In this document: piece after piece, positions 1 to 12,819 of the stretch
Layout of the letters: every line of letters begins with the position of its first letter
Position numbering within the stretch: position 1 is the stretch's first letter
IMG/VR virus record: IMGVR_UViG_2778260995_000007
Coordinates: 1 to 12,819 of that record
Length of the DNA stretch: 12,819 bases
Source of the DNA: a virus
Taxonomy: Duplodnaviria; Heunggongvirae; Uroviricota; Caudoviricetes
Strand: one strand, 5' to 3'
Notes under the pieces: generated by a model
Told to the model about the DNA's origin: nothing
Databases searched by the model: none
What the model saw: only the letters and a program-made list of their open reading frames with translations
Translations under genes and position numbers: made by a program

Positions 1-117
1 GTTTCGCCGATTGTTTCCGGTGAGGTTATCCGTTCCCGTGGCGGCTCCACCTCTGAATTTACGCCGGGATATGTCAAACCCAAGCACTTAGCATGGCTTT
101 CTGAGGCTTTCGTGTAG
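1..117 (+). pseudogene. E: 5' fragment of lambda-type major capsid protein gene E; frame enters from upstream of the window, is broken after codons ...GYVKPKH (nt 87) and runs into element sequence to a TAG at 115-117
   Basis: Frame 1 translates VSPIVSGEVIRSRGGSTSEFTPGYVKPKH, which matches my recollection of lambda gpE; the continuation ...KPKHEVNPQMTLRRL is found at 10733 onward. Confidence 0.8.
77..86. repeat. Left copy of 10-bp direct repeat AACCCAAGCA (putative attL core)
   Basis: Identical 10-mer at 10731-10740; flanking bases differ on both sides. Confidence 0.6.
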
Positions 118-249
118 TTGCTGGTTTTTACACTTAATCTTTTGATAATAAAGAATAAGTTTATCTGGTGCTTTCACTGAATTTTCCTCGTTATCTGTGT
201 GTTGCAATCATCTCTGTATTGCAGCTTGTATTGCTTTTTGGGGCTAAAA

Positions 250-1485
250 ATGGCTGGCGAGAACAAACTGAGCGACAAAGCGCTTAAAGGATATCTGGGG
301 AAACCCAGAGAAAAGCAGATCACCATTGCTGATGGAAAGGGGCTTTCTATTCGTGTGAGTACTAAAGGGGCTGTGAGCTTTGTTTTCTTCTACAGGTTAG
401 CAGGTGGCCGGGCTGCTCCGGTCTGGCTAACGTTGGGTAAATATCCTGATATGTCACTCAAACAGGCAAGGGAAAAGCGCGACGAGTGCCGTGGTTGGTT
501 GGCTGACAAACGTGATCCGCGTATCCAGATAAAGATTCAGGCTGAAGAACGCTTAAAGCCGGTCACAGTGGAGGATGCACTAAATTACTGGTATGAAAAT
601 TACTGTAAGGTGCGTCGTAAAACTCATGCTGTAACGCTTGGCAGATTTCGAAAGCATATCTTTCCCTATATCGGTCATTTGCCCGTAAATGACACTCACC
701 TATATGAATGGCTGGACTGTTTTGACCGAATTAAACGTAATGCACCAGTTATGGCGGCGTATGTTTTTTCTGACACTAAATTAGCTCTTCGTTTTTGTCG
801 GGTACGCCAGTACGCGACGTGTGATGCTTTAAAGGATTTGCGCATGAGTGATGTGGGGCAGATTGCAGGTAAGCGGGATCGGGTTCTGGATGAAGCCGAA
901 CTCGGCCAGCTCTGGAAGGCAATTTTTGTCGAGCCTGATTTAAAACTAATGTCTGAATACACGCGAAAAATGTTTGTGCTTTGTACACTATTTGGATGTC
1001 GAATGAGTGAAGCCCGATTATCAGAATGGAGCGAATGGGATCTCGAAAGTTGGGTTTGGACTGTACCAAAAGATCACTCAAAAACTGGTGTTGAAATCGT
1101 CAGACCAGTACCTGAAATTCTACGACAGTGGGTAACGGATGTTCACGAAGAGACAAAACATACTGGTTATGTGCTGGGAAGTCTGCGAATTAGAGAAAGC
1201 GTAAGCAAGATTGGGGGGAAAATCGGTAAACGTTTGGGCCATGAAAAACAATGGTCACTACACGACCTTAGAAGAACGCTATCTACTCATCTAAGTGATC
1301 TCGGTGTTGAATTTTATGTAGTAGAACAACTGTTAGGCCATGCGCTACCTGGCGTGGCAGGTGTTTACAACCGGAGTAAGTTTATGGCTAAAAAACTGGA
1401 TGCTCTGGAACTCTGGACTACATATCTCAATAGCATCGCAGGTGCTGATTCAAAAGTGACAATCCTCAAACAAAAGGCTGGTTAA
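250..1485 (+). CDS. int: Tyrosine site-specific integrase, P4-type
   Basis: ORF 199-1485; start placed at ATG 250 (MAGENKLSDKALKGYL...). N-terminal region and C-terminal ...HDLRRT...LLGHA... motifs are typical of P4-family integrases; sits next to the attL repeat. Confidence 0.88.
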   Translation: MAGENKLSDKALKGYLGKPREKQITIADGKGLSIRVSTKGAVSFVFFYRLAGGRAAPVWLTLGKYPDMSLKQAREKRDECRGWLADKRDPRIQIKIQAEERLKPVTVEDALNYWYENYCKVRRKTHAVTLGRFRKHIFPYIGHLPVNDTHLYEWLDCFDRIKRNAPVMAAYVFSDTKLALRFCRVRQYATCDALKDLRMSDVGQIAGKRDRVLDEAELGQLWKAIFVEPDLKLMSEYTRKMFVLCTLFGCRMSEARLSEWSEWDLESWVWTVPKDHSKTGVEIVRPVPEILRQWVTDVHEETKHTGYVLGSLRIRESVSKIGGKIGKRLGHEKQWSLHDLRRTLSTHLSDLGVEFYVVEQLLGHALPGVAGVYNRSKFMAKKLDALELWTTYLNSIAGADSKVTILKQKAG

Positions 1486-1486
1486 C

Positions 1487-1714
1487 ATGAAAAAAATGGC
1501 AATTGTTGATAAAAAGGGTCTGGAGTACATTCCTAACATTGATCGTATGATCCGTGAGAAAGAATGTCGGGAGCTAACCACTCTTGCGAACAGCACACGC
1601 TGGAAGCTGGAGAAGGAAGGAAAATTTCCTAAGCGGATCAAGATTGGCGCTACTGCGGTAGCTTACCGTCTCTCCGAAGTTCAGGCATGGATTAGGGGGG
1701 AATGGCGGACATAA
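1487..1714 (+). CDS. alpA: AlpA-family HTH regulator / excisionase-like protein
   Basis: 75 aa; ...LTTLANSTRWKLEKEGKFPKRIKIGATAVAYRLSEVQAWI is a typical AlpA (Phage_AlpA) HTH; ATG lies 1 nt after the int stop, suggesting translational coupling. Confidence 0.8.
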   Translation: MKKMAIVDKKGLEYIPNIDRMIREKECRELTTLANSTRWKLEKEGKFPKRIKIGATAVAYRLSEVQAWIRGEWRT

Positions 1715-1750
1715 ATGTTGTAGTAAATTGTTATATAAAAGGGTGTAAGC

Positions 1751-2626
1751 ATGGCTACTCGAAAAAAAAATAGCGTAGAAATGAAAACTGTTTGTGAACT
1801 AATCATATCAAGAGATGATATGAAAGATAAAATTCAAGACAGAATTCAAAAAGGATTATTACTCCTACAGAAAAGCATAAATAACAATAGTGACTTGGAG
1901 CTGTTTAATGCTGATTACAGGAAATGGAGTGATTTTAATGCTGAGCTACTGAAGCGTAGTTTCACAAATGATGATTTCAAAGAAGAATATGAAGGTGGGG
2001 CATTTGGTGTTATTTCATTGTACGAGACTTCCTTGGGAGAAAAAATCAGTGAGGCTACGCGTAAACTCCAGAGTAAGATAAGAAAACTAGAGTCGATTAT
2101 GGAGCGACTGGAGTTAATTCCTATATCTTCCAAAGTTGTTGAAGAAAATATTGAAGTACCTCAGAGTTCAGCGGTAAAAACCAAAAAAGTATTCATTGTT
2201 CATGGAAGAGATGAAGTATCAAAAACCAACTTAGAAGTGTTTTTAAGAGAAATTGGCTTAGAACCTATTGTTCTCCATAGGCAAGCTGATGTAGGTCAGA
2301 CAGTGATTGAGAAATTTGAAGCAAATAGTGATGTTGGTTTCGCATTCATTCTTCTCACACCTGATGAGATCGCTTATTTATTTCCGCAAGACTCTTTACC
2401 TGATAATGAAAGAGAAAAGGAGTTACGTGCACGACCAAATGTAATGTTTGAATTTGGTTATTTCGTAGGGAAATTAGGTCGTTCTAAGGTTTGTTGTCTA
2501 TACACAGGTGATGTAGTGATTCCAAGTGATTTGAATGGTCTTATTTATAAAAAATTCAATTCTTCTATTGAAGAAGTAGCATATAGCATTATTAAAGACT
2601 TGCGAGCTACTGGTTACGCAGTTTAG
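1751..2626 (+). CDS. Cargo protein with an N-terminal helical region and a C-terminal TIR-like domain (resembles the COG4271/CAP12-type TIR-like fold); candidate anti-phage effector
   Basis: 291-aa ORF, visibly AT-rich compared with neighbours. C-terminal KKVFIVHGRDE...FAFILLTPDE...RARPNVMFEFGYFVGKLGRSKV matches the motif pattern I recall for TIR-like proteins. Not confirmed by search. Confidence 0.6.
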   Translation: MATRKKNSVEMKTVCELIISRDDMKDKIQDRIQKGLLLLQKSINNNSDLELFNADYRKWSDFNAELLKRSFTNDDFKEEYEGGAFGVISLYETSLGEKISEATRKLQSKIRKLESIMERLELIPISSKVVEENIEVPQSSAVKTKKVFIVHGRDEVSKTNLEVFLREIGLEPIVLHRQADVGQTVIEKFEANSDVGFAFILLTPDEIAYLFPQDSLPDNEREKELRARPNVMFEFGYFVGKLGRSKVCCLYTGDVVIPSDLNGLIYKKFNSSIEEVAYSIIKDLRATGYAV

Positions 2627-2655
2627 TAAATTCTTTGAACTAAAAATCTGCATAG

Positions 2656-2688
2656 ATATAGAGCCATTCGAGATAAATGGCTCTATAT
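2656..2688. terminator. Perfect 13-bp inverted repeat (ATATAGAGCCATT / AATGGCTCTATAT, 7-nt loop) between convergent genes; possible bidirectional terminator or protein-binding palindrome
   Basis: Seen directly; lies 30 nt after the stop of the 1751-2626 gene and 14 nt after the stop of the minus-strand RHH ORF. AT-rich stem, and a T-run on the minus strand only after a 9-nt spacer, so terminator function is uncertain. Confidence 0.4.
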
Positions 2689-2701
2689 GAAATATTATCT
2701 G

Positions 2702-2881
2702 TTAAATTTTGACTTCATATCCGCGTTGCTGTAGTTCTTTGCGAATAATCCTTTTAATCCAGGCTGCTAAAGATTCGTCTCCATCTACTTGCTGTGCTTG
2801 CTCCATCAACTCCCTCAACTCAGGATCTAACCGAAACTGGAACGGAGGATTACCACGTCTTTGATTTTTGTGTGTTGACAC
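2702..2881 (-). CDS. Small Arc/MetJ-like ribbon-helix-helix DNA-binding protein (59 aa from GTG 2881; a 34-aa version from ATG 2806 would lack the ribbon strand)
   Basis: Minus-strand translation VSTHKNQRRGNPPFQFRLDPELRELMEQAQQVDGDESLAAWIKRIIRKELQQRGYEVKI has an Arc-like strand-helix-helix pattern. Below the length cut-off of the supplied ORF track; start codon uncertain. Confidence 0.4.
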   Translation of the reverse strand: MSTHKNQRRGNPPFQFRLDPELRELMEQAQQVDGDESLAAWIKRIIRKELQQRGYEVKI

Positions 2882-2929
2882 GTCAATTACACCCGATGTA
2901 ATGTGTTAATGTGTGATGACACATTACAT
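2875..2929. promoter_or_regulatory. Promoter/operator region: plus-strand TTGACA (2875-2880) - 16 nt - TGTAAT (2897-2902); 11-bp inverted repeat ATGTAATGTGT (2896-2906) / ACACATTACAT (2919-2929) plus tandem TAATGTGT (2899-2906, 2907-2914)
   Basis: Seen directly in the intergenic region between the minus-strand RHH ORF and the plus-strand operon starting at 3012; palindrome arms overlap the candidate -10 elements. Confidence 0.4.
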
Positions 2930-2948
2930 ACGTGTTTAGGAAAATGCA

Positions 2949-2981
2949 ACGCCTCGACGTGCGGGAACACCATCGAGGCGT
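2949..2981 (+). promoter_or_regulatory. GC-rich hairpin in the 5' leader of the replication operon (9-bp stem ACGCCTCGA / TCGAGGCGT, 15-nt loop); no downstream U-tract
   Basis: Perfect inverted repeat seen directly, 30 nt upstream of ATG 3012. Confidence 0.3.
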
Positions 2982-3011
2982 CTAACCAACCCGTTAAATG
3001 AGGTAACGATT

Positions 3012-3377
3012 ATGGCTGGAACACAGCATACCCAAACTCACCCTAAATTTATATACACCTTTCTGGCACTACACCACGACCGCATGGCAGATGGAGCAAC
3101 TACGGTACATGTAGCCGCTGACACGCTGGTTGATGCCCGCAAGATGGTTAAGGAGATGGGCTATACTGCGGCTTTCTGGAAAGGGCGTGAAGAAAACACG
3201 CTGTTTATTCAGAAATGCGAAAACAATTTCATCTGGCGTTTTATCGCCCTGAGCACCGCACAACCACGCGTAATACACATCGAGGCCGCCAGCGAACAGG
3301 AAGCCCGGCTGCAATCCCCAACTGGCTACGTGATGATATTCGCCGCCCGTATTCGTCAGGAGGTGTGCCATGAATGA
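3012..3377 (+). CDS. Hypothetical protein, first gene of replication-module operon
   Basis: 121-aa ORF with GAGGT RBS 6 nt upstream; stop overlaps the next start. Confidence 0.65.
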   Translation: MAGTQHTQTHPKFIYTFLALHHDRMADGATTVHVAADTLVDARKMVKEMGYTAAFWKGREENTLFIQKCENNFIWRFIALSTAQPRVIHIEAASEQEARLQSPTGYVMIFAARIRQEVCHE

Positions 3378-3594
3378 TCTTTATTTTAAAGTGCTGACAC
3401 ATGCTGAAAACGCGCTCGTTTGTGGCAAAAATATGCGAGAAATCTTATCAACCTGGCTTGATGGGACAACAAATGCGGAACACGATGAACGGGATGCTAA
3501 TTTAGCTGGAGCGTTAATTACGTTACTTGATCCTGTCATCAAAGAGCTGGATGAAGCTATAAAAATACACGACCAGAGCTATACCGGAGAATAA
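3370..3594 (+). CDS. Hypothetical small protein
   Basis: 74-aa ORF; AGGAGG 4 nt upstream of ATG; 8-nt overlap with the upstream ORF. Confidence 0.6.
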   Translation: MNDLYFKVLTHAENALVCGKNMREILSTWLDGTTNAEHDERDANLAGALITLLDPVIKELDEAIKIHDQSYTGE

Positions 3595-3597
3595 AAA

Positions 3598-3885
3598 ATG
3601 AAAAATAAATTTTCTGGCTTTATTGCCAGCGGTCAAACTCATTCAAAAATCAGCCTTGGGGATATTTTCAAAGACAGCTATGGCTATCGGGTAAAGATTA
3701 TTTCGGTTGATGATCGTCGTGTCTCTTATTTGCGTGATGGTTATGATTTTGAATGTGTTATGCCGCGTCAGCAGTTCGAAAGAGATTTCATTCTGGTAAA
3801 AAATTGCAAGACAGATAATCAGAGGCGTGCCGCAGGCTATATCCGCAAAATTCGGGCAATGTTAGTTGCCGGAGGTAACAAATGA
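3598..3885 (+). CDS. Hypothetical small protein
   Basis: 95-aa ORF packed tightly between neighbours; stop overlaps the primase start (ATGA). Confidence 0.6.
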   Translation: MKNKFSGFIASGQTHSKISLGDIFKDSYGYRVKIISVDDRRVSYLRDGYDFECVMPRQQFERDFILVKNCKTDNQRRAAGYIRKIRAMLVAGGNK

Positions 3886-5633
3886 AACGTGCTCCGAACT
3901 TAAAATACCAACCGCGCGACAAAATGACAGAAGTCATCATTTTTGCTGGCAGTGATGCCTGGAGCCATGCAAAAGAATGGAATGAATGGGCGGGTAAGCA
4001 TATTGCCGCCGACGATGTGCCGCCTGTCGTGCTGGCTGATGAGCAACTGAAAAATATCACCGATTACCGGATCATTGATGAAGATCGTCAGTGTGTGCGT
4101 GTTTACCGCGCAGGACATATCACAGAGCACAGCATGACGCAGATTGTTACGTTACTGGCTGTGGCTGGAGTGAAGACCGTACACGAATACGCGGGGATTA
4201 CTGACACCAGCCCAGTGGATTTATCCGAGCAGTTGCCGCGACTCAAAGAGGAATGCGAGCGTGGGGAAAGTCTGGTGCTTAATCTTCCGACGAAGCAAAA
4301 GGCGCAACTTTCACAGATGGCAGACAGTGAACGTGCACAACTACTTGCCGATCGCTTTGATGGTGTGTGTGTTCATGCAGAAAGTGAAATCGTCCACGTA
4401 TGGCGCGGCGGGGTATGGTGTCCGGTCAGCACAATGGAGCTGAGCCGCGAAATGGTGGCGATCTATTCAGAGCACAGGGCCACGTTCAGCAAACGTGTAA
4501 TCAATAACGCCGTGGAAGCGTTAAAAGTTATTGCCGACCCCATGGGGGAGCCGTCCGGTGATTTGCTACCGTTCACTAATGGTGTGCTTAACCTGAAAAC
4601 GGGGGAATTTTCTCCGCACTCGCCGGAGCACTGGAGCACCACGCACAATGGCATTGAGTACACGCCACCAGTAGCAGGGGAAAACATCCGCGATAATGCG
4701 CCAAATTTCCATAAATGGCTTGAACATGCTGCAAGAAAAGACCCGCGCAAGATGATGCGTATATGTGCCGCGTTATACATGATTATGGCGAACCGCTACG
4801 ACTGGCAGATGTTCATTGAGGCCACCGGAGACGGGGGAAGCGGTAAGAGTACATTTACCCATATTGCCACCCTGCTTGCTGGCAAACAGAACACCGTAAG
4901 CGCGGAGATGACATCACTCGATGATGCAGGAGGGCGCGCGCAGGTTGTCGGGAGTCGTCTTATCGTCCTTGCCGATCAGCCGAAATATACGGGGGAAGGC
5001 ACGGGCATCAAGAAAATCACGGGAGGCGATCCCGTTGAAATTAACCCGAAATATGAGAAGCGATTCACGACGATAATAAGGGCGGTGGTACTGGCAACCA
5101 ATAACGACCCGATGATCTTTACCGAACGAGCCGGAGGTGTGTCACGCCGTCGGGTGATTTTCCGGTTCGACAACATTGTAAGGGAGGACGAAAAAGACAA
5201 GGAATTACCGGAAAAGATAGCGGCAGAAATCCCCGTAATTATCCGCCGCTTGCTGGCTAATTTTGCTGACCCTGAAAAGGCACGGGCTTTATTACTGGAA
5301 CAGCGTGACGGTGATGAAGCTCTGGCAATAAAGCAGCAAACGGATCCGGTTGTTGAGCTTTGCGCGGCGCTGGAGTTTCTGGAGGAAGCTCGTGGGCTAA
5401 TGATGGGCGGTGGTGGTGACACCGTGAAGTACACGACCAGAAACAGCCTTTACCGTGTCTATATGGCCTTCATGGCATACACAGGAAAGGGGAAATGTTT
5501 GAGCGTGAATGAGTTCGGAAAGGCTATGAGGTCAGCGGCGAAAGTTTACGGATATGAATATATTACGCGAAAAGTTAAGGGAGTCACGCAGACCAACGCA
5601 ACGACTACTGATGATTGCGATGCGTTTTTATAA
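3882..5633 (+). CDS. Replication initiator: primase-associated SF3 helicase-type protein (P4 alpha C-terminal / D5-like family; the pri-rep of PICI-type satellites)
   Basis: 583 aa; Walker A GDGGSGKST and a downstream hydrophobic strand ending in D (LIVLAD) typical of P4-family primase-helicase C-terminal domains; GGAGG RBS; followed by an iteron array. Confidence 0.85.
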   Translation: MKRAPNLKYQPRDKMTEVIIFAGSDAWSHAKEWNEWAGKHIAADDVPPVVLADEQLKNITDYRIIDEDRQCVRVYRAGHITEHSMTQIVTLLAVAGVKTVHEYAGITDTSPVDLSEQLPRLKEECERGESLVLNLPTKQKAQLSQMADSERAQLLADRFDGVCVHAESEIVHVWRGGVWCPVSTMELSREMVAIYSEHRATFSKRVINNAVEALKVIADPMGEPSGDLLPFTNGVLNLKTGEFSPHSPEHWSTTHNGIEYTPPVAGENIRDNAPNFHKWLEHAARKDPRKMMRICAALYMIMANRYDWQMFIEATGDGGSGKSTFTHIATLLAGKQNTVSAEMTSLDDAGGRAQVVGSRLIVLADQPKYTGEGTGIKKITGGDPVEINPKYEKRFTTIIRAVVLATNNDPMIFTERAGGVSRRRVIFRFDNIVREDEKDKELPEKIAAEIPVIIRRLLANFADPEKARALLLEQRDGDEALAIKQQTDPVVELCAALEFLEEARGLMMGGGGDTVKYTTRNSLYRVYMAFMAYTGKGKCLSVNEFGKAMRSAAKVYGYEYITRKVKGVTQTNATTTDDCDAFL

Positions 5634-5646
5634 AAAATGGCAATGG

Positions 5647-5875
5647 TTATCTACCTTGTCTACCTGACTGAAAGAAAATACTTTTATTTCAATGTATTAA
5701 TGCAGGTAGATAACTATTTTTCACTGTCTACCTGTTATCTACCTTATCTACCCATTTTTGTAGACAGGTAAGGAGACGGGTAGAGATGAGGTAGACAGCT
5801 ATTTGGGGCTGTCTACCTCCCTGAAACCCGCGCCATTACTGGCCTGATAACTAATCAGGTAGACAAGGTAGACAA
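5647..5875. repeat. Iteron array, putative replication origin: about 12 copies of GGTAGA(C/T)A in both orientations around an AT-rich stretch (5667-5700)
   Basis: Seen directly: TTATCTACC/TTGTCTACC tandem at 5647-5664; GGTAGATAA at 5705-5713; three copies at 5725-5753; GGTAGACAA x2 at 5858-5875, and others. Confidence 0.7.
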
Positions 5876-5922
5876 GGTGGTGGTGCACAAAAAACTTTTT
5901 AAACGAGGGGGTAAAAATAAAA

Positions 5923-6165
5923 ATGCACACATCAGGAAAACTGAACAAACATATAAAGCCACATTACCGCGCCCTTGATATGGCTGAACACTGGCTAAGG
6001 GTGGCGATTAAGGCAATAGACCGCAACGCCGGGGAAGGATACGCGAAAGCACATCCCGAACTGATAAGCGCATTCATGACAACGGCGGCTGCAAACTTTG
6101 CCACGCTGACCGAACGGGAGATTGCCGAAGCGGAGGAAGTGACAACCATCAATATTAAGTCCTGA
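5923..6165 (+). CDS. Hypothetical protein
   Basis: 80-aa ORF with a G-rich RBS upstream; no recognisable motif. Confidence 0.5.
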   Translation: MHTSGKLNKHIKPHYRALDMAEHWLRVAIKAIDRNAGEGYAKAHPELISAFMTTAAANFATLTEREIAEAEEVTTINIKS

Positions 6166-6176
6166 GAGCAGGCAGC

Positions 6177-6626
6177 ATGACGGCGCAAATAGCAGCTTAC
6201 GGGCGGCTGGTGGACGAGCCACAGGTAAAACATACCAGCAAGGGAACACCCATGACACTGGCACGGATGGCGGTATCTTTGCCATGCAGCCAGGCAGATG
6301 ACGGAACGGCGACGATGTGGTTATCTGTGCTGGCGTTTGGCAGACAAGCCGACGCGCTGGCAAAGCATCACAAAGGCGAACTCCTGAGCGTGGCGGGTAA
6401 TATGCAGGTGAGCCAGTGGACTGGACAGAACGGTGAAACGCGGCAGGGCTGGCAGGTTATCGCAGACAGCGTAATCAGTGCGCGAACGGTGCGACCGGGC
6501 GGCAAAAAAGGTCAACAGGGTCAGGCTACTGACGCACTGAACAGAGCAAAACAACAGGCAGATCAGCAAGGAAGCCATCCACCAGTGGGAGATAATGAAC
6601 AATGGGGAGATGATATTCCGTTTTAA
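6177..6626 (+). CDS. Single-stranded DNA-binding protein-like (OB fold) with canonical acidic C-terminal tip ...DDIPF
   Basis: 149 aa; OB-fold pattern (...WLSVLAFGRQAD...KGELLSVAGNMQVSQWTGQNGETRQGWQV...) followed by a Gly/Gln-rich linker and C-terminal DDIPF, as in bacterial SSB. Confidence 0.7.
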   Translation: MTAQIAAYGRLVDEPQVKHTSKGTPMTLARMAVSLPCSQADDGTATMWLSVLAFGRQADALAKHHKGELLSVAGNMQVSQWTGQNGETRQGWQVIADSVISARTVRPGGKKGQQGQATDALNRAKQQADQQGSHPPVGDNEQWGDDIPF

Positions 6627-6645
6627 ATATTGCCAATAAAAAAAG

Positions 6646-6670
6646 GCCGGAAAAAAATAAATTTTCCGGC
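6646..6670. terminator. Hairpin (9-bp stem GCCGGAAAA / TTTTCCGGC, 7-nt loop) downstream of the SSB-like gene; A-tract on the 5' side only
   Basis: Seen directly; a T-run follows the stem only when read on the minus strand, so plus-strand termination is uncertain. Confidence 0.35.
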
Positions 6671-6844
6671 ATGCTACATAAATCCCGACCAAAGGGAGTG
6701 AAGATATTAACACTAATTATCCGCGCTGAAGTTGTTATCCCAAAACTTTATACAACATTGCACTCGGTTGCATGTATTCGCATGACAAATATCGGTGATA
6801 GCATATATCCACAATTATTTTTAATGAATGCAAAGAGGATGCGT

Positions 6845-7885
6845 ATGGTCGATTTATATTCGCCTACCCAGCTTGTACAGGTGGTTAATGCTGTAGATGT
6901 ACAAAAACAACTAAATGCGTTGTTTACCAGTTTGTTTTTTACTCGCTCTGTAATGTTTGAATCGCGCGATATTATTCTTGATACAATCGACGATCCAAAT
7001 ATCCCAATTGCAGCGTTTTGTTCTCCTATGGTGGGTAGTAAAGTTTCACGTGACGAAGGGTACGAATCAAAAACAATTCGTCCAGGCTATATGAAGCCGA
7101 AAAGCAGCATTGATCCAAATAAGTTAGCTGTGCGCCCTGCTGGTGTATCACCTGAGCAATACAATGCTTTTGGAGCGCGTAATATTAAAGTTAAACAGGC
7201 GATTGTAAATCAGGCTAAAGCTATTCGTGCACGTATTGAATGGCTTGCCGTTCAGGCAATCACAACGGGGAAAAATATCATTGAGGGCGATGGTATTGAA
7301 CGTTATGAACTGGACTGGAATATAAAACCACAAAATATTATCACGCAGTCTGGCGGTGCTGAGTGGTCAGGTAAGGATAAAGAAACTTTTGATCCAAATG
7401 ATGATATTGAGAGCTACGCAGAATTTAGTGAGGGCGTCACTAATATCATCATTATGGGCGGTAATGTATGGAAGAAATACCGTTCATTCAGAGCGATAAA
7501 AGAGGCTCTGGATACCCGCCGTGGTTCTAATTCCGAACTGGAAACGGCCCTTAAAGACCTTGGTGATTCGGTGAGTTTTAAAGGGTATATGGGCGATGTT
7601 GCGATTGTTGTTTACAGCGGACGTTATACCGACGAGGACGGAACTGAAAAACATTTCCTTGATCCTGATTTGATGGTGCTTGGCAATACGGCTCTTCAGG
7701 GGATTGTCGCCTATGGCGGTATTCAGGATCCGGAGCTAACCCGAATGGGGCTGACTAAAGCCGAACTTGCACCGAAAAACTATATTGTGCCTGGTGATCC
7801 GGCTATTGAGTACGTACAAACGCACTCTGCACCACAGCCAATACCGGCCCGCATCAATCGTTTTGTTACCGTTCGCATTGGCTAA
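6845..7885 (+). CDS. Major capsid protein, diverged homologue of lambda gpE, encoded by the element
   Basis: Start moved to ATG 6845 (AAGAGG RBS), giving 346 aa, close to lambda E in size. Shares blocks with lambda E as I recall it: PGYMKPK, ITQSGGAEW, LDTRRGSNSELETA, GDVAIVVYSG, VLGNT, GDPA (roughly 40-50% identity by eye). Confidence 0.8.
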   Translation: MVDLYSPTQLVQVVNAVDVQKQLNALFTSLFFTRSVMFESRDIILDTIDDPNIPIAAFCSPMVGSKVSRDEGYESKTIRPGYMKPKSSIDPNKLAVRPAGVSPEQYNAFGARNIKVKQAIVNQAKAIRARIEWLAVQAITTGKNIIEGDGIERYELDWNIKPQNIITQSGGAEWSGKDKETFDPNDDIESYAEFSEGVTNIIIMGGNVWKKYRSFRAIKEALDTRRGSNSELETALKDLGDSVSFKGYMGDVAIVVYSGRYTDEDGTEKHFLDPDLMVLGNTALQGIVAYGGIQDPELTRMGLTKAELAPKNYIVPGDPAIEYVQTHSAPQPIPARINRFVTVRIG

Positions 7886-7894
7886 GGGGGAGCA

Positions 7895-8236
7895 ATGGCT
7901 ACTCATTACACTGAACTCATGTCTGGCACTGAAGCACTGGTTACTACGCTGGGGATATTTTCAGCCAATAAAGGGGTAATACCTGCGTTTACGCCACTGA
8001 TGCAGGAAGATGCAACTGGTGCGCTAGTGGTATGGGATGGAACGAGCGCAGGCAAAGCGGTTTATGTTTCCGCTGTACAAATCGACACAGCGAAAAAAAC
8101 ACAGGCACAGGTTTATAAGACAGGTGTTTTAAATGTTGATGCTCTGAACTGGCCTGAGTCTGTAAGAGAACTGTCGGCAAAGGTTGCCGCGTTTGTTGGC
8201 TCAGGTATTTCTGTTCAGCCGCTGGCTCGTGTGTAA
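7895..8236 (+). CDS. Head decoration protein, homologue of lambda gpD
   Basis: 113 aa; ...PAFTPLMQEDATGALVVWDGTSAGKAV...YKTGVLNVDALNWPE...AAFVGSGISV parallels lambda D (...PAMTPLM...LVAWDGTTDGAAV...YKSGTFRYEDVLWPE...TAFAGTAISIV); AAGGGGGA RBS. Confidence 0.8.
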   Translation: MATHYTELMSGTEALVTTLGIFSANKGVIPAFTPLMQEDATGALVVWDGTSAGKAVYVSAVQIDTAKKTQAQVYKTGVLNVDALNWPESVRELSAKVAAFVGSGISVQPLARV

Positions 8237-8247
8237 AGGGGGATACA

Positions 8248-8631
8248 ATGCAGAATCATTACAATGACCTTAAGCCAATTGCCGAAATGATGTACCCGAA
8301 TCCAGCTGTAGAGGAATTAAAAGCTATCGCTGACAAAATGTGTTTAAGCGAGCGCCTTGTTGATATGAATCAGGTGATGGAAATTACAACCCTGAGTCGG
8401 CGTACACTGCTAAACCTTGAGGCTAGTGGAGAGTTCCCGGAGCGTGTGCAGGTTACGGAAGGGCGTAAGGCCTGGTATTTAAGTGAAGTGATCGACTGGA
8501 TAAATAATATTCCTCGCGCTTCTGAATATTGCCGCGTACCTGTCCCAAAAAAGCCAGATGCGGCGCTATGCCTCAAGATTGAGCGTGTACGCCGCAATGC
8601 ACGGGATGGTCGCTATAAGCTGATTGGTTGA
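8248..8631 (+). CDS. AlpA/MerR-like HTH DNA-binding protein, larger than a typical AlpA, function unknown
   Basis: 127 aa; central ...MEITTLSRRTLLNLEASGEFPERVQVTEGRKAWYLSEVIDWI is an AlpA-type HTH; AAAGGGGGA RBS; follows the capsid genes. Confidence 0.65.
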   Translation: MQNHYNDLKPIAEMMYPNPAVEELKAIADKMCLSERLVDMNQVMEITTLSRRTLLNLEASGEFPERVQVTEGRKAWYLSEVIDWINNIPRASEYCRVPVPKKPDAALCLKIERVRRNARDGRYKLIG

Positions 8632-9287
8632 TGAAATTAGGGCCCGCTCTGGCTGGCGGGTCCTTTCCGGCGATCCAGAACGTTACGGGGCGTCAGGCGC
8701 GCAGTTTTTTGCTATTTATGAAAATTTTCCGGTTTAAAGCGTTTCCGTTCTTCTTCGCCGTAACTTAATGTTTTTATTAGAAACACCCACTAAAAAGAAA
8801 GGAAACAACAGATGCTGAAAACGTGTTTTTTGGACAGTGTCGTTTCCTTTCTCTGGTTTTGTTGCCGTCTGTCGCGGTCTGTCACCAGAAAAAACTCTCA
8901 CCCCTGCGTTGAATCAGGCTCTACACTAAAGTAGACAATAACGCGCCGCTGGCTTCGCTTCATGGTCGTGGCCTACTTCTGCACTATCGCAACAGCCTTA
9001 TGCGCCCTGCTGGTGAGCTATTGAGTAAGCAGAATGCGGATTACAAGGCATCCTATGCGTTTTGTGGCGTACCGAACACAACCGCTCAGGTGAATCCCGT
9101 TTTGTTAGTTTATGGAAAGAGCCGTATCGGGGGCGCAATCATTTCTGCGTGGATCTATGTCGAAGACAAAATGTGGTATGCGCATCTGGCCGGAGGGTGA
9201 GCAATTTATCAGGGAAGTATCATCTCTACAGGTTTAAGACAACCAGAAGAAGTTATCGAGCAAGTTGGGTATGAAGATTTTCCTATA

Positions 9288-9551
9288 ATGGTAACGTTTA
9301 AGATTCCGGTGTTTGGTATCGTGGTGGGAACATGGAGGAATGTGGATCCGGCAAAATCATTCGGTTTTTTCCGTCAATTCATTGTGGACTGGGATTAGGA
9401 GAGTGTGCTTACTGACCAAGCTCTTAAGGGATATTTATATGCTTACCTAGGCACTGATGAAGCACTTTTCAAATGCTGGGCGGATTATATGAAATGCAGA
9501 TTGGCAGAAAATGAACATAGGTTTAAAAAATATACTGAGACTGTAAACTGA
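9288..9551 (+). pseudogene. Possible decayed ORF: 87-codon frame broken by an in-frame TAG at 9396-9398, no RBS
   Basis: Translation MVTFKIPVFGIVVGTWRNVDPAKSFGFFRQFIVDWD*ESVLTDQALKGYLYAYLGTDEALFKCWADYMKCRLAENEHRFKKYTETVN*; sits in a ~1 kb stretch (8632-9676) without convincing genes. Confidence 0.2.
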
Positions 9552-9676
9552 GTTCGCTGTGATTTAATTCGTGATTTAATCGAAGAGAGGAAAGTGAAAT
9601 GAGCCCTGCTAAGGGCCGCATCTTTATATTGAACGACTTATCACTAGATTAGGAAATCACTTCGAATGATATGCTG

Positions 9677-10549
9677 TTACTTTATAATTCCGTCTTTGAA
9701 AACCATTTTCTTAGCGCCAGAGGTATAGTTTTGAACAATTCCCAATAACTCTTTTGAATAGTCAATTGTAGAAATTGTCTCTGCCGGTTTGTTATATGTG
9801 TAATTAAGTGAGTAACCTCTCAGCTTTAATCTTAAATCACCATTTTCTAACTCTAAATAAGCGTCGGTTAGCTCTTCTTTGTAAGTGCCTGCACCATATT
9901 GGATGTTAGGTACTCTCGCGGATAAGGAGTTTTCTAAGTCGCAGAGAGAATACTTGTCGTGGGTAGTATTATCAACGATGAATATTTGGTTGTTAAGTAG
10001 TCGACTGAACCTTGAATTTAAATCATCTATGTTTAAATTTTTTTGCGACTCAAGCCAGCTTGCATCTATCATTGGTGAGAATGCAGTTATTCTGGGGGGA
10101 GTTATCGCGACGATATTCAATTGAATAGTTTTGATAAGTGGTGTTCCATCTGGCGCGCGCCAGTCTTCGTTATCAGCTTCACGAACTATTAGAAGGTCAA
10201 TTTTATATTGTTCGGCTTTTTTTTGAGCCCCACTTTGATACCCTGTTTTGGTTGCATAAATTAGTCTTAGGCCGGGAATATCTGCTGTTTTTCCGATGAA
10301 TGCGTCAATTTTCTCGATACTTACACTTGAAGCGTAGTCTTTGCATTCGATTACGGTCTTATATTCATAACCTCCTAAGTTAAATTCCCAATACACATCG
10401 AATTGCCTAGTTATGCCGTTTTTATCTACGATTTTTTTGTTTACTTCAACGGTGATGTTTTTCAAGTGAGAAATTTTCTCAGCTTGTATCAAGCTTTGAT
10501 GAATCGCCCCAACAAATTCCTCATAATCTCTGCCAGTGTTTTTAGTCAT
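9677..10549 (-). CDS. Mrr-type restriction-endonuclease-like (PD-(D/E)xK) protein with an uncharacterised C-terminal domain; candidate defence nuclease
   Basis: Start placed at ATG 10549 (GAGG RBS 8 nt upstream; the track's 10567 start is TTG), 290 aa. N-terminal half shows a PD-(D/E)xK pattern (...QFDVYWEF...YKTVIECKDY...SIEKIDAFIGK...LIYATKTGYQSGA...). Visibly AT-rich. Confidence 0.75.
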   Translation of the reverse strand: MTKNTGRDYEEFVGAIHQSLIQAEKISHLKNITVEVNKKIVDKNGITRQFDVYWEFNLGGYEYKTVIECKDYASSVSIEKIDAFIGKTADIPGLRLIYATKTGYQSGAQKKAEQYKIDLLIVREADNEDWRAPDGTPLIKTIQLNIVAITPPRITAFSPMIDASWLESQKNLNIDDLNSRFSRLLNNQIFIVDNTTHDKYSLCDLENSLSARVPNIQYGAGTYKEELTDAYLELENGDLRLKLRGYSLNYTYNKPAETISTIDYSKELLGIVQNYTSGAKKMVFKDGIIK

Positions 10550-10730
10550 TGTGCAGCCTCGTTCCAATCATCAGAGTAACGGTTAAATATTTATACACCT
10601 TGAATCTATGAACAGATTTATGTCACTTCACGCTGTATTGCACGCTGTATTGCATTAAGGAGGAATAATGTCGATTTGATGATGTTTTATCAAGTAAATT
10701 CATTCACATCCTTTCATATTTGACTCATGT

Positions 10731-10740
10731 AACCCAAGCA
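10731..10740. repeat. Right copy of 10-bp direct repeat AACCCAAGCA (putative attR core)
   Basis: Identical to 77-86; the E reading frame resumes directly here (CCC AAG CAT GAG GTG = P K H E V). Confidence 0.6.
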
Positions 10741-11521
10741 TGAGGTGAATCCGCAGATGACCCTGCGTCGCCTGCCGGATGAAGATCCGCAGAATCTGGC
10801 GGACCCAGCTTACCGCCGCCGTCGCATCATCATGCAGAACATGCGTGACGAAGAGCTGGCCATTGCTCAGGTCGAAGAGATGCAGGCAGTTTCTGCCGTG
10901 CTTAAGGGCAAATACACCATGACCGGTGAAGCCTTCGATCCGGTTGAGGTGGATATGGGCCGCAGTGCGGCGAATAACATCACGCAGTCCGGCGGCACGG
11001 AGTGGAGCAAGCGTGACAAGTCCACGTATGACCCGACCGACGATATCGAAGCCTACGCGCTGAACGCCAGCGGTGTGGTGAATATCATCGTGTTTGATCC
11101 GAAAGGCTGGGCGCTGTTCCGTTCCTTCAAAGCCGTCAAGGAGAAGCTGGATACCCGTCGTGGCTCTAATTCCGAGCTGGAGACAGCGGTGAAAGACCTG
11201 GGTAAAGCGGTGTCCTATAAGGGGATGTATGGCGATGTTGCCATCGTCGTGTATTCCGGACAGTACGTGGAAAACGGTGTCAAAAAGAACTTCCTGCCGG
11301 ACAACACGATGGTGCTGGGGAACACTCAGGCACGCGGTCTGCGTACCTATGGCTGTATTCAGGATTCGGACGCACAGCGCGAAGGCATTAACGCATCTGC
11401 CCGTTACCCGAAAAACTGGGTGACCACCGGCGATCCGGCGCGTGAGTTCACCATGATTCAGTCAGCACCGCTGATGCTGCTGGCTGACCCTGATGAGTTC
11501 GTGTCCGTACAACTGGCGTAA
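10733..11521 (+). pseudogene. E: 3' fragment of lambda-type major capsid protein gene E (from ...KPKHEVNPQMTLRRL to the C-terminus)
   Basis: Translation matches my recollection of the lambda gpE C-terminal ~260 aa almost residue for residue; an in-frame TAA at 10730-10732 closes the frame upstream. Confidence 0.85.
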
Positions 11522-11523
11522 TC

Positions 11524-11550
11524 ATGGCCCTTCGGGGCCATTTTCTCTCT
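11524..11550 (+). terminator. Rho-independent terminator-like hairpin after E (ATGGCCC-TTCG-GGGCCAT followed by a T-rich tract)
   Basis: 7-bp GC-rich stem with TTCG tetraloop and TTTTCTCTCT tail, seen directly 3 nt after the E stop. Confidence 0.6.
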
Positions 11551-11562
11551 GTGGAGGAGTCC

Positions 11563-11961
11563 ATGACGAAAGATGAACTGATTGCCCGCCTCCGCTCGTT
11601 GGGTGAGCAACTGAACCGTGATGTCAGCCTGACGGGGACGAAAGAAGAACTGGCGCTCCGTGTGGCAGAGCTGGAAGAGGAGCTTGATGACACGGATGAC
11701 ACTGCCGGTCAGGACACCCCTCTCAGCCCGGAAAATGTGCTGACCGGGCATGAAAATGAGGCTGTATCAGCGCAGCCGGATACCGTGATTCAGGATGCGG
11801 CTGATCTGGTCACCGTTGTGGCACTGGTGACGCTGCATACTGATGCACTTCACGCCATCCGGGATGAACCTGTGGCATTTGTGATGCCGGGAACGGCGTT
11901 CCGTGTCTCTGCCGGTGTGGCAACCGAAATGACAGAACGCGGCCTGGCCAGAATGCAATAA
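11563..11961 (+). CDS. FI: Lambda-type head assembly/DNA packaging protein FI
   Basis: Start at ATG 11563 with GGAGGAG RBS (the track's ORF begins upstream at 11524); MTKDELIARLRSLGEQLNRDVSLTGTKEELALRVAEL... matches lambda gpFI as I recall it. Confidence 0.88.
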   Translation: MTKDELIARLRSLGEQLNRDVSLTGTKEELALRVAELEEELDDTDDTAGQDTPLSPENVLTGHENEAVSAQPDTVIQDAADLVTVVALVTLHTDALHAIRDEPVAFVMPGTAFRVSAGVATEMTERGLARMQ

Positions 11962-11972
11962 CGGGAGGCGCT

Positions 11973-12326
11973 GTGGCTGATTTCGATAACCTGTTCGATG
12001 CTGCCATTGCCCGCGCCGATGAAACGATACGCGGGTACATGGGAACGTCAGCCACCATTACATCCGGTGAGCAGTCCGGTGCTGTGATACGTGGTGTTTT
12101 TGATGACCCTGAAAATATCAGCTATGCCGGACAGGGCGTGCGCGTTGAAGGCTCCAGCCCGTCCCTGTTTGTCCGGACTGATGAGGTGCGGCAGCTGCGG
12201 CGTGGAGACACGCTGACCATCGGTGAGGAAAACTTCTGGATAGACCGGGTTTCGCCGGATGATGGCGGAAGTTGTCATCTCTGGCTTGGACGGGGCGTAC
12301 CGCCTGCCGTTAACCGTCGCCGCTGA
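11973..12326 (+). CDS. FII: Lambda-type head-tail joining protein FII
   Basis: GTG start with GGGAGG RBS; MADFDNLFDAAIARADETIRGYMGTSATITSGEQSGAVIRGVFDDPENISYAGQGVRVEG... matches lambda gpFII. Confidence 0.88.
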   Translation: MADFDNLFDAAIARADETIRGYMGTSATITSGEQSGAVIRGVFDDPENISYAGQGVRVEGSSPSLFVRTDEVRQLRRGDTLTIGEENFWIDRVSPDDGGSCHLWLGRGVPPAVNRRR

Positions 12327-12337
12327 AAGGGGGATGT

Positions 12338-12819
12338 ATGGCCATAAAAGGTCTTGAGCAGGCCGTTGAAAACCTCAGCCGTATCAGCAAAACGGCGGTG
12401 CCCGGTGCCGCCGCAATGGCCATTAACCGCGTTGCGTCATCCGCGATATCGCAGTCGGCGTCACAGGTTGCCCGAGAGACAAAGGTACGCCGGAAACTGG
12501 TAAAGGAAAGGGCCATGCTGAAAAGGGCCACGGTCAAAAATCCGCAGGCCAGAATCAAAGTTAACCGGGGGGATTTGCCCGTAATAAAGCTGGGTAACGC
12601 GCGGGTTGTCCTGTCCCGACGCAGGCGTCGTAAAAAGGGGCAGCGTTCATCCCTGAAAGGTGGCGGCAGCGTGCTTGTGGTGGGAAACCGTCGTATTCCC
12701 GGCGCGTTTATTCAGCAACTGAAAAATGGCAGGTGGCATGTTATGCAGCGTGTGGCCGGGAAAAACCGTTACCCCATTGATGTGGTGAAAATCCCGATGG
12801 CGGTGCCGCTGACCACGGC
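12338..12819 (+). CDS. Z: Lambda-type tail protein Z, 5' partial (runs off the window end)
   Basis: ATG 12338 with AAAGGGGGA RBS; MAIKGLEQAVENLSRISKTAVPGAAAMAINRVASSAISQ... matches lambda gpZ; no stop before the window end. Confidence 0.85.
   Translation, partial: MAIKGLEQAVENLSRISKTAVPGAAAMAINRVASSAISQSASQVARETKVRRKLVKERAMLKRATVKNPQARIKVNRGDLPVIKLGNARVVLSRRRRRKKGQRSSLKGGGSVLVVGNRRIPGAFIQQLKNGRWHVMQRVAGKNRYPIDVVKIPMAVPLTT

What the first reader, a model, noticed from the sequence alone, without database searches (positions are those of the whole stretch)
77..10740. Satellite-like integrative element inserted inside the helper-type prophage's major capsid gene E
The window opens in frame with lambda-type gpE (...GYVKPKH) and the same frame resumes 10.65 kb later (PKHEVNPQMTLRRL...) and continues into FI, FII and Z. 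The intervening DNA is bounded by a 10-bp direct repeat and begins with a P4-type integrase and alpA, followed by a primase-helicase with an iteron origin. That is the layout of PICI/P4-type satellites, but the integration target here is a phage structural gene rather than a tRNA or chromosomal gene. The insertion knocks out the resident prophage's capsid gene, so the prophage is either defective or dependent on the element.
Basis: partly seen in the sequence, partly recalled or inferred. Interest (0 to 1): 0.8.

Follow-up and report, generated by a model that had tools for sequence, protein, structure and literature searches.

The report
Known satellite embedded in prophage capsid gene
A 10.65-kb phage satellite sits precisely inside the major capsid gene of a lambda-like prophage, but this is a further copy of the "helper-embedded PICI" 11capE family that Tommasini, Mageeney and Williams described in E. 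coli in 2023, so it is real but not new.

Summary
Window 87-10740 (10,654 bp) interrupts a lambda-type E gene at codons 79-82 and is bounded by the 10-bp repeat AACCCAAGCA. With the insert removed, the flanks align without gaps to lambda 6294-8458 at 97.4% identity. Four E. coli records carry an empty site 100% identical to the joined flanks.

It belongs to the HE-PICI family, site E:Phage_cap_E:80 (PMC10111431). Its integrase matches the prototype Eco567.11capE of strain NRG857c at 409/411 residues. The doubled TGTATTGC motif lies at the published spacing from the core. The same E|int junction occurs in 174 of 5,426 complete E. coli genomes.

- the satellite's own gpE-like capsid gene and gpD-like decoration gene;
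- a second AlpA-like gene;
- a cos site;
- two variable cargo zones, holding a PDC-S35 TIR protein and an Mrr-like nuclease.

Compared with the prototype, this copy has a swapped primase/iteron replicon and different cargo.

One detail I did not find in the paper: the satellite cos keeps a helper-like cosQ and cosB but has a different 12-nt cohesive end.

Novelty: already known. Interest: low to moderate.

The parts
1..86 (+). 5' part of the helper prophage major capsid gene E. The window starts inside the gene and this part ends at codon 82. As integrated, the frame runs on to a stop at 115-117.
77..86 (+). attL core: the 10-bp identity block AACCCAAGCA.
   Evidence: It is identical to the prototype 11capE attL.
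213..235 (+). Doubled arm-type motif (cTGTATTGCa gctTGTATTGCt). It starts 133 bp downstream of the attP core centre.
   Evidence: The published spacing is 132+/-2 bp.
250..1485 (+). Tyrosine integrase of the 11capE clade. The ORF could also start at GTG 199.
   Evidence: Pfam domains. 409/411 residues identical to the NRG857c 11capE integrase.
1487..1714 (+). AlpA-family excisionase/regulator.
   Evidence: Pfam Phage_AlpA, E = 6e-15.
1751..2626 (+). Cargo in the first variable ('Bro/dynamic') zone: a CAP12/Pycsar-type TIR protein, PADLOC candidate defence family PDC-S35.
   Evidence: The region 1706-2958 is not shared with the prototype.
3012..3377 (+). Icd-like / repressor-like small protein; only the C-terminal half matches.
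   Evidence: phrog_1743 and phrog_6196. Relatives are annotated as Icd-like.
3370..3885 (+). Two small conserved ORFs: phrog_2196 (3370-3594) and DUF4222 (3598-3885).
3882..5633 (+). Primase-helicase (D5_N + DUF5906 + Pox_D5). This is a different replicon allele from the prototype.
   Evidence: Only 49% identical to the 11capE primase. The same allele is found at 99.9% in other family members.
5645..5875 (.). Iteron origin: 10 copies of RTCTACCY in both orientations.
   Evidence: 0.77 copies expected by chance.
5923..6626 (+). phrog_1231 small ORF (5923-6165) and SSB (6177-6626).
6845..7885 (+). The satellite's own lambda-gpE-family major capsid protein. The open frame extends upstream to 6671.
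   Evidence: Pfam Phage_cap_E, E = 6.5e-42. 42% identical to lambda gpE. 345/346 identical to the 11capE copy. Best PDB match is 3bqw, E = 7e-121.
7895..8236 (+). The satellite's own gpD-family head decoration protein.
   Evidence: Pfam HDPD, E = 4.6e-15. 40% identical to lambda gpD.
8248..8631 (+). Second AlpA-family HTH protein, immediately upstream of cos.
   Evidence: No Rpp match in the PDB.
8657..8868 (+). cos site: cosQ, a variant cosN (cohesive end GGGCGTCAGGCG) and helper-like cosB R elements.
9000..9200 (+). Relic of a tail-assembly (gpI-like) gene.
   Evidence: phrog_32, E = 5.8e-13, C-terminal 50 aa only.
9677..10567 (-). Cargo in the second variable zone: an Mrr_cat-type restriction endonuclease-like protein.
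   Evidence: The region 8863-10719 is not shared with the prototype.
10632..10654 (+). Doubled arm-type motif (gcTGTATTGCa cgcTGTATTGCa). It ends 82 bp upstream of the attP core centre.
   Evidence: The published spacing is 81+/-2 bp.
10731..10740 (+). attR core AACCCAAGCA.
10741..11521 (+). 3' part of helper gene E (codon 83 to the stop).
11524..12819 (+). Helper late genes FI, FII and the start of Z.

Best explanation
Window 87-10740 is a helper-embedded phage-inducible chromosomal island (HE-PICI) of the 11capE / E:Phage_cap_E:80 group. The mechanism below marks each step as shown or inferred.

1. Integration (sequence shown here, chemistry inferred). The tyrosine integrase, probably positioned by four TGTATTGC arm half-sites, recombined the satellite attP with a 10-bp core in codons 79-82 of a lambda-type E gene. 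No replacement sequence is supplied, so E is split.

2. Expression (inferred). The satellite is co-oriented with the late operon. Helper induction and replication amplify it passively, and Q-antiterminated late transcription is expected to read into int-alpA. No + strand terminator-like site was predicted between E' and alpA.

3. Excision (shown for the prototype by qPCR and deep sequencing in PMC10111431; inferred for this copy). Int and AlpA excise the satellite late, regenerating an intact E.

4. Replication (inferred). The circle replicates from its own primase-helicase, iteron origin and SSB.

5. Packaging (inferred; no virions have yet been observed). The satellite is packaged by helper terminase at its own cos. 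That cos keeps a helper-type cosQ and cosB.

6. Capsid genes (role inferred, not established). The satellite's own gpE and gpD paralogues are the only intact shell genes available before excision. They may supply or modify capsids.

7. Cargo (inferred). Two variable zones carry defence-type genes that benefit the host and satellite.
For: Precise, frame-restoring insertion.

Identity to the prototype: int 409/411; attL-int-alpA region 98.6% at DNA level and attR region 95.9%; capsid gene 345/346.

Arm motif at -82 and +133 from the core centre, against the published 81+/-2 and 132+/-2.

Site specificity in E. coli complete genomes: 175 carry this int-alpA and 174 carry the E|int junction. 3,104 genomes hold an uninterrupted site, and 4 records are 100% identical to the joined flanks.

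Replicon. cos.

Orientation and absence of predicted + strand terminators upstream of 3184.

Published excision data and model.
Against: Nothing in the window shows that this particular copy is still active.

The helper cannot be judged from 2.2 kb of flank. In one relative (HYM1) the host prophage sits at the Qin site, and no integrase or immunity genes appear in the 18 kb upstream, where an ISNCY transposase fragment lies. The authors also note that many helpers look truncated.

No satellite or helper virions were recovered for the prototype, so packaging and transfer remain unproven.

The role of the satellite's E and D copies is unknown. According to PMC10111431, knocking out the capsid gene of a related PICI was tolerated.
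Confidence: 0.9

Rival explanations
1. This copy is a stranded relic. The satellite and its host prophage are both decaying remnants, and the split E gene is simply an inactivated pseudogene that will never be restored.
For: In HYM1 the host prophage lies at the Qin locus next to an ISNCY transposase fragment, and no prophage integrase or repressor is visible upstream. The authors state that many HE-PICI helpers look truncated. A gpI-like gene relic at 9000-9200 shows some decay inside the element.
Against: All core satellite ORFs are intact, and the integrase and capsid proteins differ from those of an element shown to excise by only 2 and 1 residues. Both att cores and all four arm half-sites are intact. 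The helper flank is open through E, FI and FII.
Confidence: 0.15
2. It is a P4-type satellite, as the first reader labelled the integrase. It would then work by the P4 route of Sid/Psu capsid-size redirection and delta/epsilon helper transactivation.
For: The P4-like integrase architecture with AlpA and a D5_N primase-helicase. The integrase clade sits within a larger PICI/P4 clade according to PMC10111431. Defence cargo sits in hotspots, as in P4-like elements.
Against: No Sid, Psu, delta or epsilon homologue was found by Pfam or PHROGs. No C4/isrK immunity RNA was found at E <= 0.1. The helper is lambda-like, not P2-like. The capsid genes are gpE and gpD paralogues, and the cos is lambda-type.
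Confidence: 0.03
3. It acts mainly as an anti-phage insertion weapon. The element integrates into the E gene of incoming or resident lambdoid phages to abort their capsid production, with satellite transfer being secondary.
For: Integration destroys E without supplying a replacement sequence. The target core is present in prophages of 3,104 of 5,426 genomes. The element carries defence cargo.
Against: The element has a complete cos and its own replicon, which fits mobilisation. The prototype excises at 42-98% late after induction, restoring E. No data exist on integration during lytic infection.
Confidence: 0.05
4. It is an assembly artefact or a chance juxtaposition.
For: None found.
Against: The same junction is present in 174 complete genomes from many sources. 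The flanks are exactly colinear with lambda. The element shares the att architecture of the prototype.
Confidence: 0.01

Closest known systems
Eco567.11capE, the prototype HE-PICI at site E:Phage_cap_E:80 in E. coli NRG857c (Tommasini, Mageeney & Williams 2023, NAR Genom Bioinform, PMC10111431)
   Same: - Same target codons and the same 10-bp core AACCCAAGCA.
- Same orientation relative to the late operon.
- Integrase 409/411 identical.
- Same doubled TGTATTGC motif and spacing.
- Same backbone: hyp-SSB-capsid-decoration-AlpA2-cos, 96% at DNA level.
- Capsid protein 345/346 identical.
- Same variant cosN.

   Different: - The primase-helicase is only 49% identical and the origin differs, indicating a replicon swap.
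- Cargo differs. This copy has a PDC-S35 TIR protein and an Mrr-like nuclease. The prototype has a hypothetical/YlcI-like pair and HEPN + DUF262.
- Length is 10,654 bp against 11,077 bp.
EcCICFT073, the model Gram-negative PICI (Fillol-Salom et al. 2018, 2019; PMC6092414, PMC6739421)
   Same: It shares the int-alpA ... primase ... capsid-homologue ... cos layout, a lambdoid helper and cos packaging by helper terminase. The best solved-structure match of the satellite capsid protein is 3bqw, 'putative capsid protein of prophage'. From memory, 3bqw comes from E. coli CFT073.
   Different: EcCICFT073 is integrated in the chromosome away from its helper. It keeps cosQ and cosN but has a foreign cosB, and it uses Rpp to retarget helper TerS. 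Here cosB and cosQ are helper-like, cosN is changed, and no Rpp homologue was detected.
Capsid-forming PICIs (cf-PICIs; bioRxiv 10.1101/2022.09.08.507074)
   Same: The satellite encodes its own capsid shell protein.
   Different: cf-PICIs encode the whole head and packaging module. My recollection is that this comprises portal, protease, HK97-type capsid protein, connectors, TerS and HNH, and that they take only tails from the helper; the abstract says they encode all proteins needed for their capsids. This element has only gpE-like and gpD-like genes.
Satellite P4
   Same: Related integrase superclade, an AlpA-type regulator, a D5_N-type primase-helicase, a size of about 11 kb and defence hotspots.
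   Different: No Sid, Psu, delta or epsilon, and no cI RNA. The helper is lambda-like and the target is a phage late gene rather than a tRNA gene.

Membership tests
HE-PICI, subgroup E:Phage_cap_E:80 (11capE) | Integrated inside a prophage late gene, co-oriented with it, with no replacement sequence for the target gene. | tested here: met
   The E frame is broken at codon 82 and ends in a 9-codon foreign tail. int, alpA, primase and capsid genes are all on the + strand, like E, FI and FII.
HE-PICI, subgroup E:Phage_cap_E:80 (11capE) | Integrase belongs to the 11capE integrase clade. | tested here: met
   409/411 residues identical to the NRG857c 11capE integrase. No phylogenetic tree was built.
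HE-PICI, subgroup E:Phage_cap_E:80 (11capE) | Attachment site at about codon 80 of Phage_cap_E, with a 10-bp attL/attR identity block. | tested here: met
   The core AACCCAAGCA covers lambda E codons 79-82. Lambda E residues 5-339 map to profile positions 1-328. The junction sequences match the prototype.
HE-PICI, subgroup E:Phage_cap_E:80 (11capE) | Doubled motif tgTGTATTGCantgTGTATTGCa, 81+/-2 bp upstream and 132+/-2 bp downstream of the attP centre. | tested here: met
   In the reconstructed attP, half-sites lie at -102..-94 and -90..-82 and at +133..+141 and +145..+153.
HE-PICI, subgroup E:Phage_cap_E:80 (11capE) | Four ordered zones: Integration, Bro/dynamic, Replication, Late. | tested here: met
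   The order is int-alpA, then variable cargo plus Icd-like, then primase/ori/SSB, then capsid/decoration/cos/cargo. No Bro-N domain as such was detected in this copy.
HE-PICI, subgroup E:Phage_cap_E:80 (11capE) | cos-like segment shared with the helper cos. | tested here: met
   Window 8657-8868 is 85-87% identical to the region just upstream of nohA/nohD in two helper prophages and aligns to lambda cos.
HE-PICI, subgroup E:Phage_cap_E:80 (11capE) | Excision after helper induction that regenerates the late gene. | not testable with these tools
   Shown for the prototype by qPCR and deep sequencing. Here there is only the in-silico restoration of E.
Phage satellite in the strict sense (PICI) | Helper-dependent packaging and transfer in virions. 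| not testable with these tools
   Not demonstrated even for the prototype: no plaque-forming or transducing particles were recovered.
P4-like satellites | Sid, Psu, delta and epsilon genes, and cI/C4 immunity RNA. | tested here: not met
   No such Pfam or PHROG hits. No Rfam hit at E <= 0.1.
Capsid-forming PICI (cf-PICI) | Complete head and packaging module of its own (portal, protease, capsid protein, connectors, TerS/HNH). | tested here: not met
   Only gpE-like and gpD-like genes are present. No portal, protease or terminase ORF was found.
Rpp-type packaging redirection (EcCICFT073-like) | An Rpp protein together with a non-helper cosB. | tested here: not met
   cosB R elements are helper-like. 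The ORF beside cos is AlpA-family, with no RppC hit in the PDB.

The most novel reading that the evidence does not exclude
The terS-less members of this satellite family (three examined) have private cohesive ends: cosN is GGGCGTCAGGCG instead of GGGCGGCGACCT, while the helper's cosQ and cosB are kept. They also carry their own gpE and gpD paralogues, which are the only intact shell genes while the helper's E is split.

Together these features could mean that the embedded satellite first builds satellite-specific capsids, possibly smaller, and packages DNA whose ends cannot anneal to helper ends. That would be a packaging and interference strategy distinct from both Rpp-type and cf-PICI satellites, and I did not find it discussed in the 2023 paper.
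Probability: 0.15. Interest if true: 0.6.

Novelty: already known. Interest (0 to 1): 0.22.

Why it matters
Helper-embedded satellites show that integrases can target phage late genes. This ties satellite excision, replication and expression to the helper's late programme and makes the helper's capsid gene a case of 'regulated gene integrity'. That point was established in 2023.

This window adds another mosaic member: the same integration and late backbone, an alternative replicon and new defence-type cargo. It also offers two testable details. One is the cohesive-end variant of cosN. The other is that the att core can co-vary with the target allele. Neither changes the overall picture.

Tried and rejected
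- Rfam scan of the whole window at E <= 0.1 found nothing, so there is no P4-type C4/isrK immunity RNA.
- The promoter and terminator scan was not enriched over shuffles. It was used only to note that no + strand terminator-like site lies upstream of 3184.
- I tested whether the AlpA-like ORF beside cos is an Rpp or TerS mimic. It has only a weak similarity to the gpNu1 N-terminus (E = 0.11) and no Rpp hit in the PDB. Rejected.
- PADLOC gave nothing for the Mrr-like protein.
- The attR query with this window's own right end matched fully in only 3 genomes, because the adjacent cargo is variable. Occupancy was therefore counted from attL.
- The cos-segment search mixes satellite and helper cos sites (H193 is a helper cos), so its count of 141 is not a count of satellites.
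- I did not run the large protein searches, structure prediction or metagenome scans. Identification with a published family made them unnecessary.


Full report
**1. Observation**

The window opens inside a lambda-type major capsid gene. Frame 1 of bases 1-86 reads ...SEFTPGYVKPKH. It then continues into unrelated DNA for nine codons and stops at 115-117.

The decamer AACCCAAGCA occurs exactly twice in the window, at 77-86 and 10731-10740. After the second copy the E frame resumes (EVNPQMTLRRL...) and runs to its stop at 11521. FI, FII and the start of Z follow.

Deleting 87-10740 gives a single open E frame. The 2,165-nt joined sequence aligns base for base, without gaps, to lambda J02459 6294-8458 at 97.4% identity.

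A 169-nt joined-flank probe finds uninterrupted sites in 3,104 of 5,426 complete E. coli genomes, and four records are 100% identical. The attL probe (E|int, window 1-300) is covered at >=80% in 174 genomes. The juxtaposition is therefore real and recurrent, not an assembly artefact.

**2. Anatomy of the 10,654-bp insert**

All genes are on the + strand unless stated.

| Coordinates | Feature |
|---|---|
| 250-1485 | Integrase (Arm-DNA-bind_3 + Phage_integrase) |
| 1487-1714 | AlpA |
| 1751-2626 | CAP12/Pycsar-type TIR protein, PADLOC candidate family PDC-S35 |
| 3012-3377 | Icd-like / repressor-like ORF |
| 3370-3885 | Two small conserved ORFs, one of them DUF4222 |
| 3882-5633 | D5_N/DUF5906 primase-helicase |
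| 5649-5873 | Iteron field: 10 x RTCTACCY against 0.77 expected |
| 5923-6165 | Small ORF (phrog_1231) |
| 6177-6626 | SSB |
| 6845-7885 | Full-length gpE-family capsid protein, 42% identical to lambda gpE |
| 7895-8236 | gpD-family decoration protein, 40% identical to lambda gpD |
| 8248-8631 | Second AlpA-family protein |
| 8657-8868 | cos site |
| 9000-9200 | gpI-like gene relic |
| 9677-10567 (- strand) | Mrr_cat nuclease-like gene |

It missed the satellite's own capsid and decoration genes, the cos site and the cargo.

**3. It is a published family**

A literature search led to Tommasini, Mageeney & Williams 2023 (PMC10111431). They describe Eco567.11capE in E. coli NRG857c:

- It is an 11-kb PICI-type island inside a lambda-type E gene of prophage 50icd.
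- It has a 10-bp identity block and its own capsid gene.
- It is co-oriented with the late operon.
- They name the configuration helper-embedded PICI (HE-PICI) and the site E:Phage_cap_E:80, with 201 instances at this site.
- They report a doubled motif, tgTGTATTGCantgTGTATTGCa, at 81+/-2 bp upstream and 132+/-2 bp downstream of the attP centre.
- They could not recover virions.

**4. Membership tests run here**

- The NRG857c locus was fetched.
- The window's integrase is 409/411 identical to the prototype's.
- The capsid protein is 345/346 identical.
- attL-int-alpA is 98.6% identical and the attR side 95.9% identical at DNA level, with the same core at the same place.
- In the reconstructed attP, the TGTATTGC half-sites end 82 bp upstream and begin 133 bp downstream of the core centre. 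The prototype gives the same downstream values.
- The core lies in lambda E codons 79-82, and E residues 5-339 map to Pfam profile positions 1-328.

Every sequence-level defining feature is met. Excision and helper-dependent transfer cannot be tested computationally.

P4-type membership fails: no Sid, Psu, delta, epsilon or immunity RNA was found. cf-PICI membership fails: there is no portal, protease or terminase. Rpp-type redirection is not supported.

**5. Site specificity**

In complete E. coli genomes, 175 carry this int-alpA at >=80% coverage and 174 carry the E|int junction. Essentially every copy is in E. That is about 3.2% of the genomes.

The satellite's own capsid gene differs from the core at 5 of 10 positions (AGCCGAAAAG). 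This fits the authors' remark that self-integration is unlikely.

**6. How this copy differs from the prototype**

- The primase-helicase is identical for about 45 residues and then diverges, giving 49% identity overall.
- The origin region is not shared with the prototype. The same replicon allele occurs at 99.9% in other members of the family (overlapping the genomes).
- The two variable zones (1706-2958 and 8863-10719) hold different cargo.
- No complete genome covers more than 74% of the window. This module combination is therefore not in that collection, although each module is.

**7. Mechanism**

The best-supported account is the published one: integration by Int at the E core, passive amplification, read-through expression from the helper late operon, late Int/AlpA-mediated excision restoring E, autonomous replication, and cos packaging by helper terminase.

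- Shown here: the architecture, site specificity, intactness of all parts, and the absence of predicted + strand terminators between E' and alpA (weak evidence).
- Shown elsewhere, for the prototype: excision timing and precision.
- Inferred: read-through, packaging, transfer, and any role for the gpE and gpD paralogues.

A composite of a roughly 50-kb helper plus 10.65 kb would exceed the roughly 10% excess over genome size that lambda packaging tolerates (the authors raise this point). Excision is therefore needed for helper packaging.

**8. Details noticed beyond the paper's text**

I searched the paper for cosN, decoration and defense.

(a) cos. The satellite cos keeps cosQ and the cosB R elements but has GGGCGTCAGGCG where lambda and three helper prophages have GGGCGGCGACCT. 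The prototype and a third satellite share the variant. A sister satellite that carries its own terS has the canonical cosN and a foreign cosB. This is the reverse of EcCICFT073.

(b) Core alleles. In strain HYM1 both attL and attR carry the lambda-type core allele AGCCGAAGCA. The attP core therefore exists in at least two alleles that match synonymous variants of E codons 79-80.

(c) Cargo. The cargo is defence-type: PDC-S35 TIR and Mrr-like.

**9. Verdict**

The phenomenon, the site and the family are already in the literature. This is one more mosaic member, so novelty is 'already known' and interest is low to moderate.

Noticed in passing
window 8657-8868 (cosN about 8687-8712); L002 about 20600-20740; L007; L006: The satellite cos has a helper-like cosQ and cosB but a different 12-nt cohesive-end sequence: GGGCGTCAGGCG against GGGCGGCGACCT in lambda and three helper prophages. 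The variant is shared by the prototype 11capE and a third satellite. A sister satellite with its own terS has the canonical cosN but a non-lambda cosB. The word cosN does not occur in the main text of the 2023 paper.
   Followed up: partly
L001 (E. coli HYM1) attL about 18078-18087 and attR about 29026-29035, compared with window 77-86 and 10731-10740: The 10-bp core exists in two alleles. The window and NRG857c have AACCCAAGCA. HYM1 has the lambda-type AGCCGAAGCA at both attL and attR. The differences are synonymous changes in E codons 79-80, so the satellite attP core appears to track the target allele.
   Followed up: partly
window 4176-5969: Replicon swap relative to the prototype. The primase-helicase is identical for about the first 45 residues and only 49% identical overall, and it has a different iteron origin. 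The same allele is found at 99.9% in other capE HE-PICIs.
   Followed up: yes
window 1751-2626 and 9677-10567 (- strand): The two variable zones carry defence-type cargo: a CAP12/Pycsar-type TIR protein matching PADLOC candidate family PDC-S35, and an Mrr_cat restriction-endonuclease-like protein with no PADLOC or PHROG hit. Relatives carry DUF2971, DUF262+HEPN, SWIM or terS at the same places.
   Followed up: partly
window 9000-9200: A 66-aa ORF matches only the C-terminal 50 residues of tail assembly protein families (phrog_32, gpI-like). It is probably a relic of captured helper late genes.
   Followed up: no
window 6671-6844: The satellite capsid ORF is open for 58 codons upstream of the annotated ATG at 6845. 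A strong hairpin with a T-run lies on the minus strand at 6646-6670, in the SSB-capsid gap. The true start and any regulation were not examined.
   Followed up: no
window 8248-8631: A second AlpA-family HTH protein (127 aa, phrog_2790) sits directly upstream of cos. Its HTH has a weak resemblance to the gpNu1 N-terminus (E = 0.11). Its function is unknown and it is not an Rpp homologue by sequence.
   Followed up: partly
L001 1-18000 (E. coli HYM1): In this relative the host prophage occupies the Qin locus (ydfJ side) and has a complete lambda-like late operon. The upstream end has an ISNCY transposase fragment, and no integrase or repressor is visible in the stretch fetched, so some helpers may be defective.
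   Followed up: no
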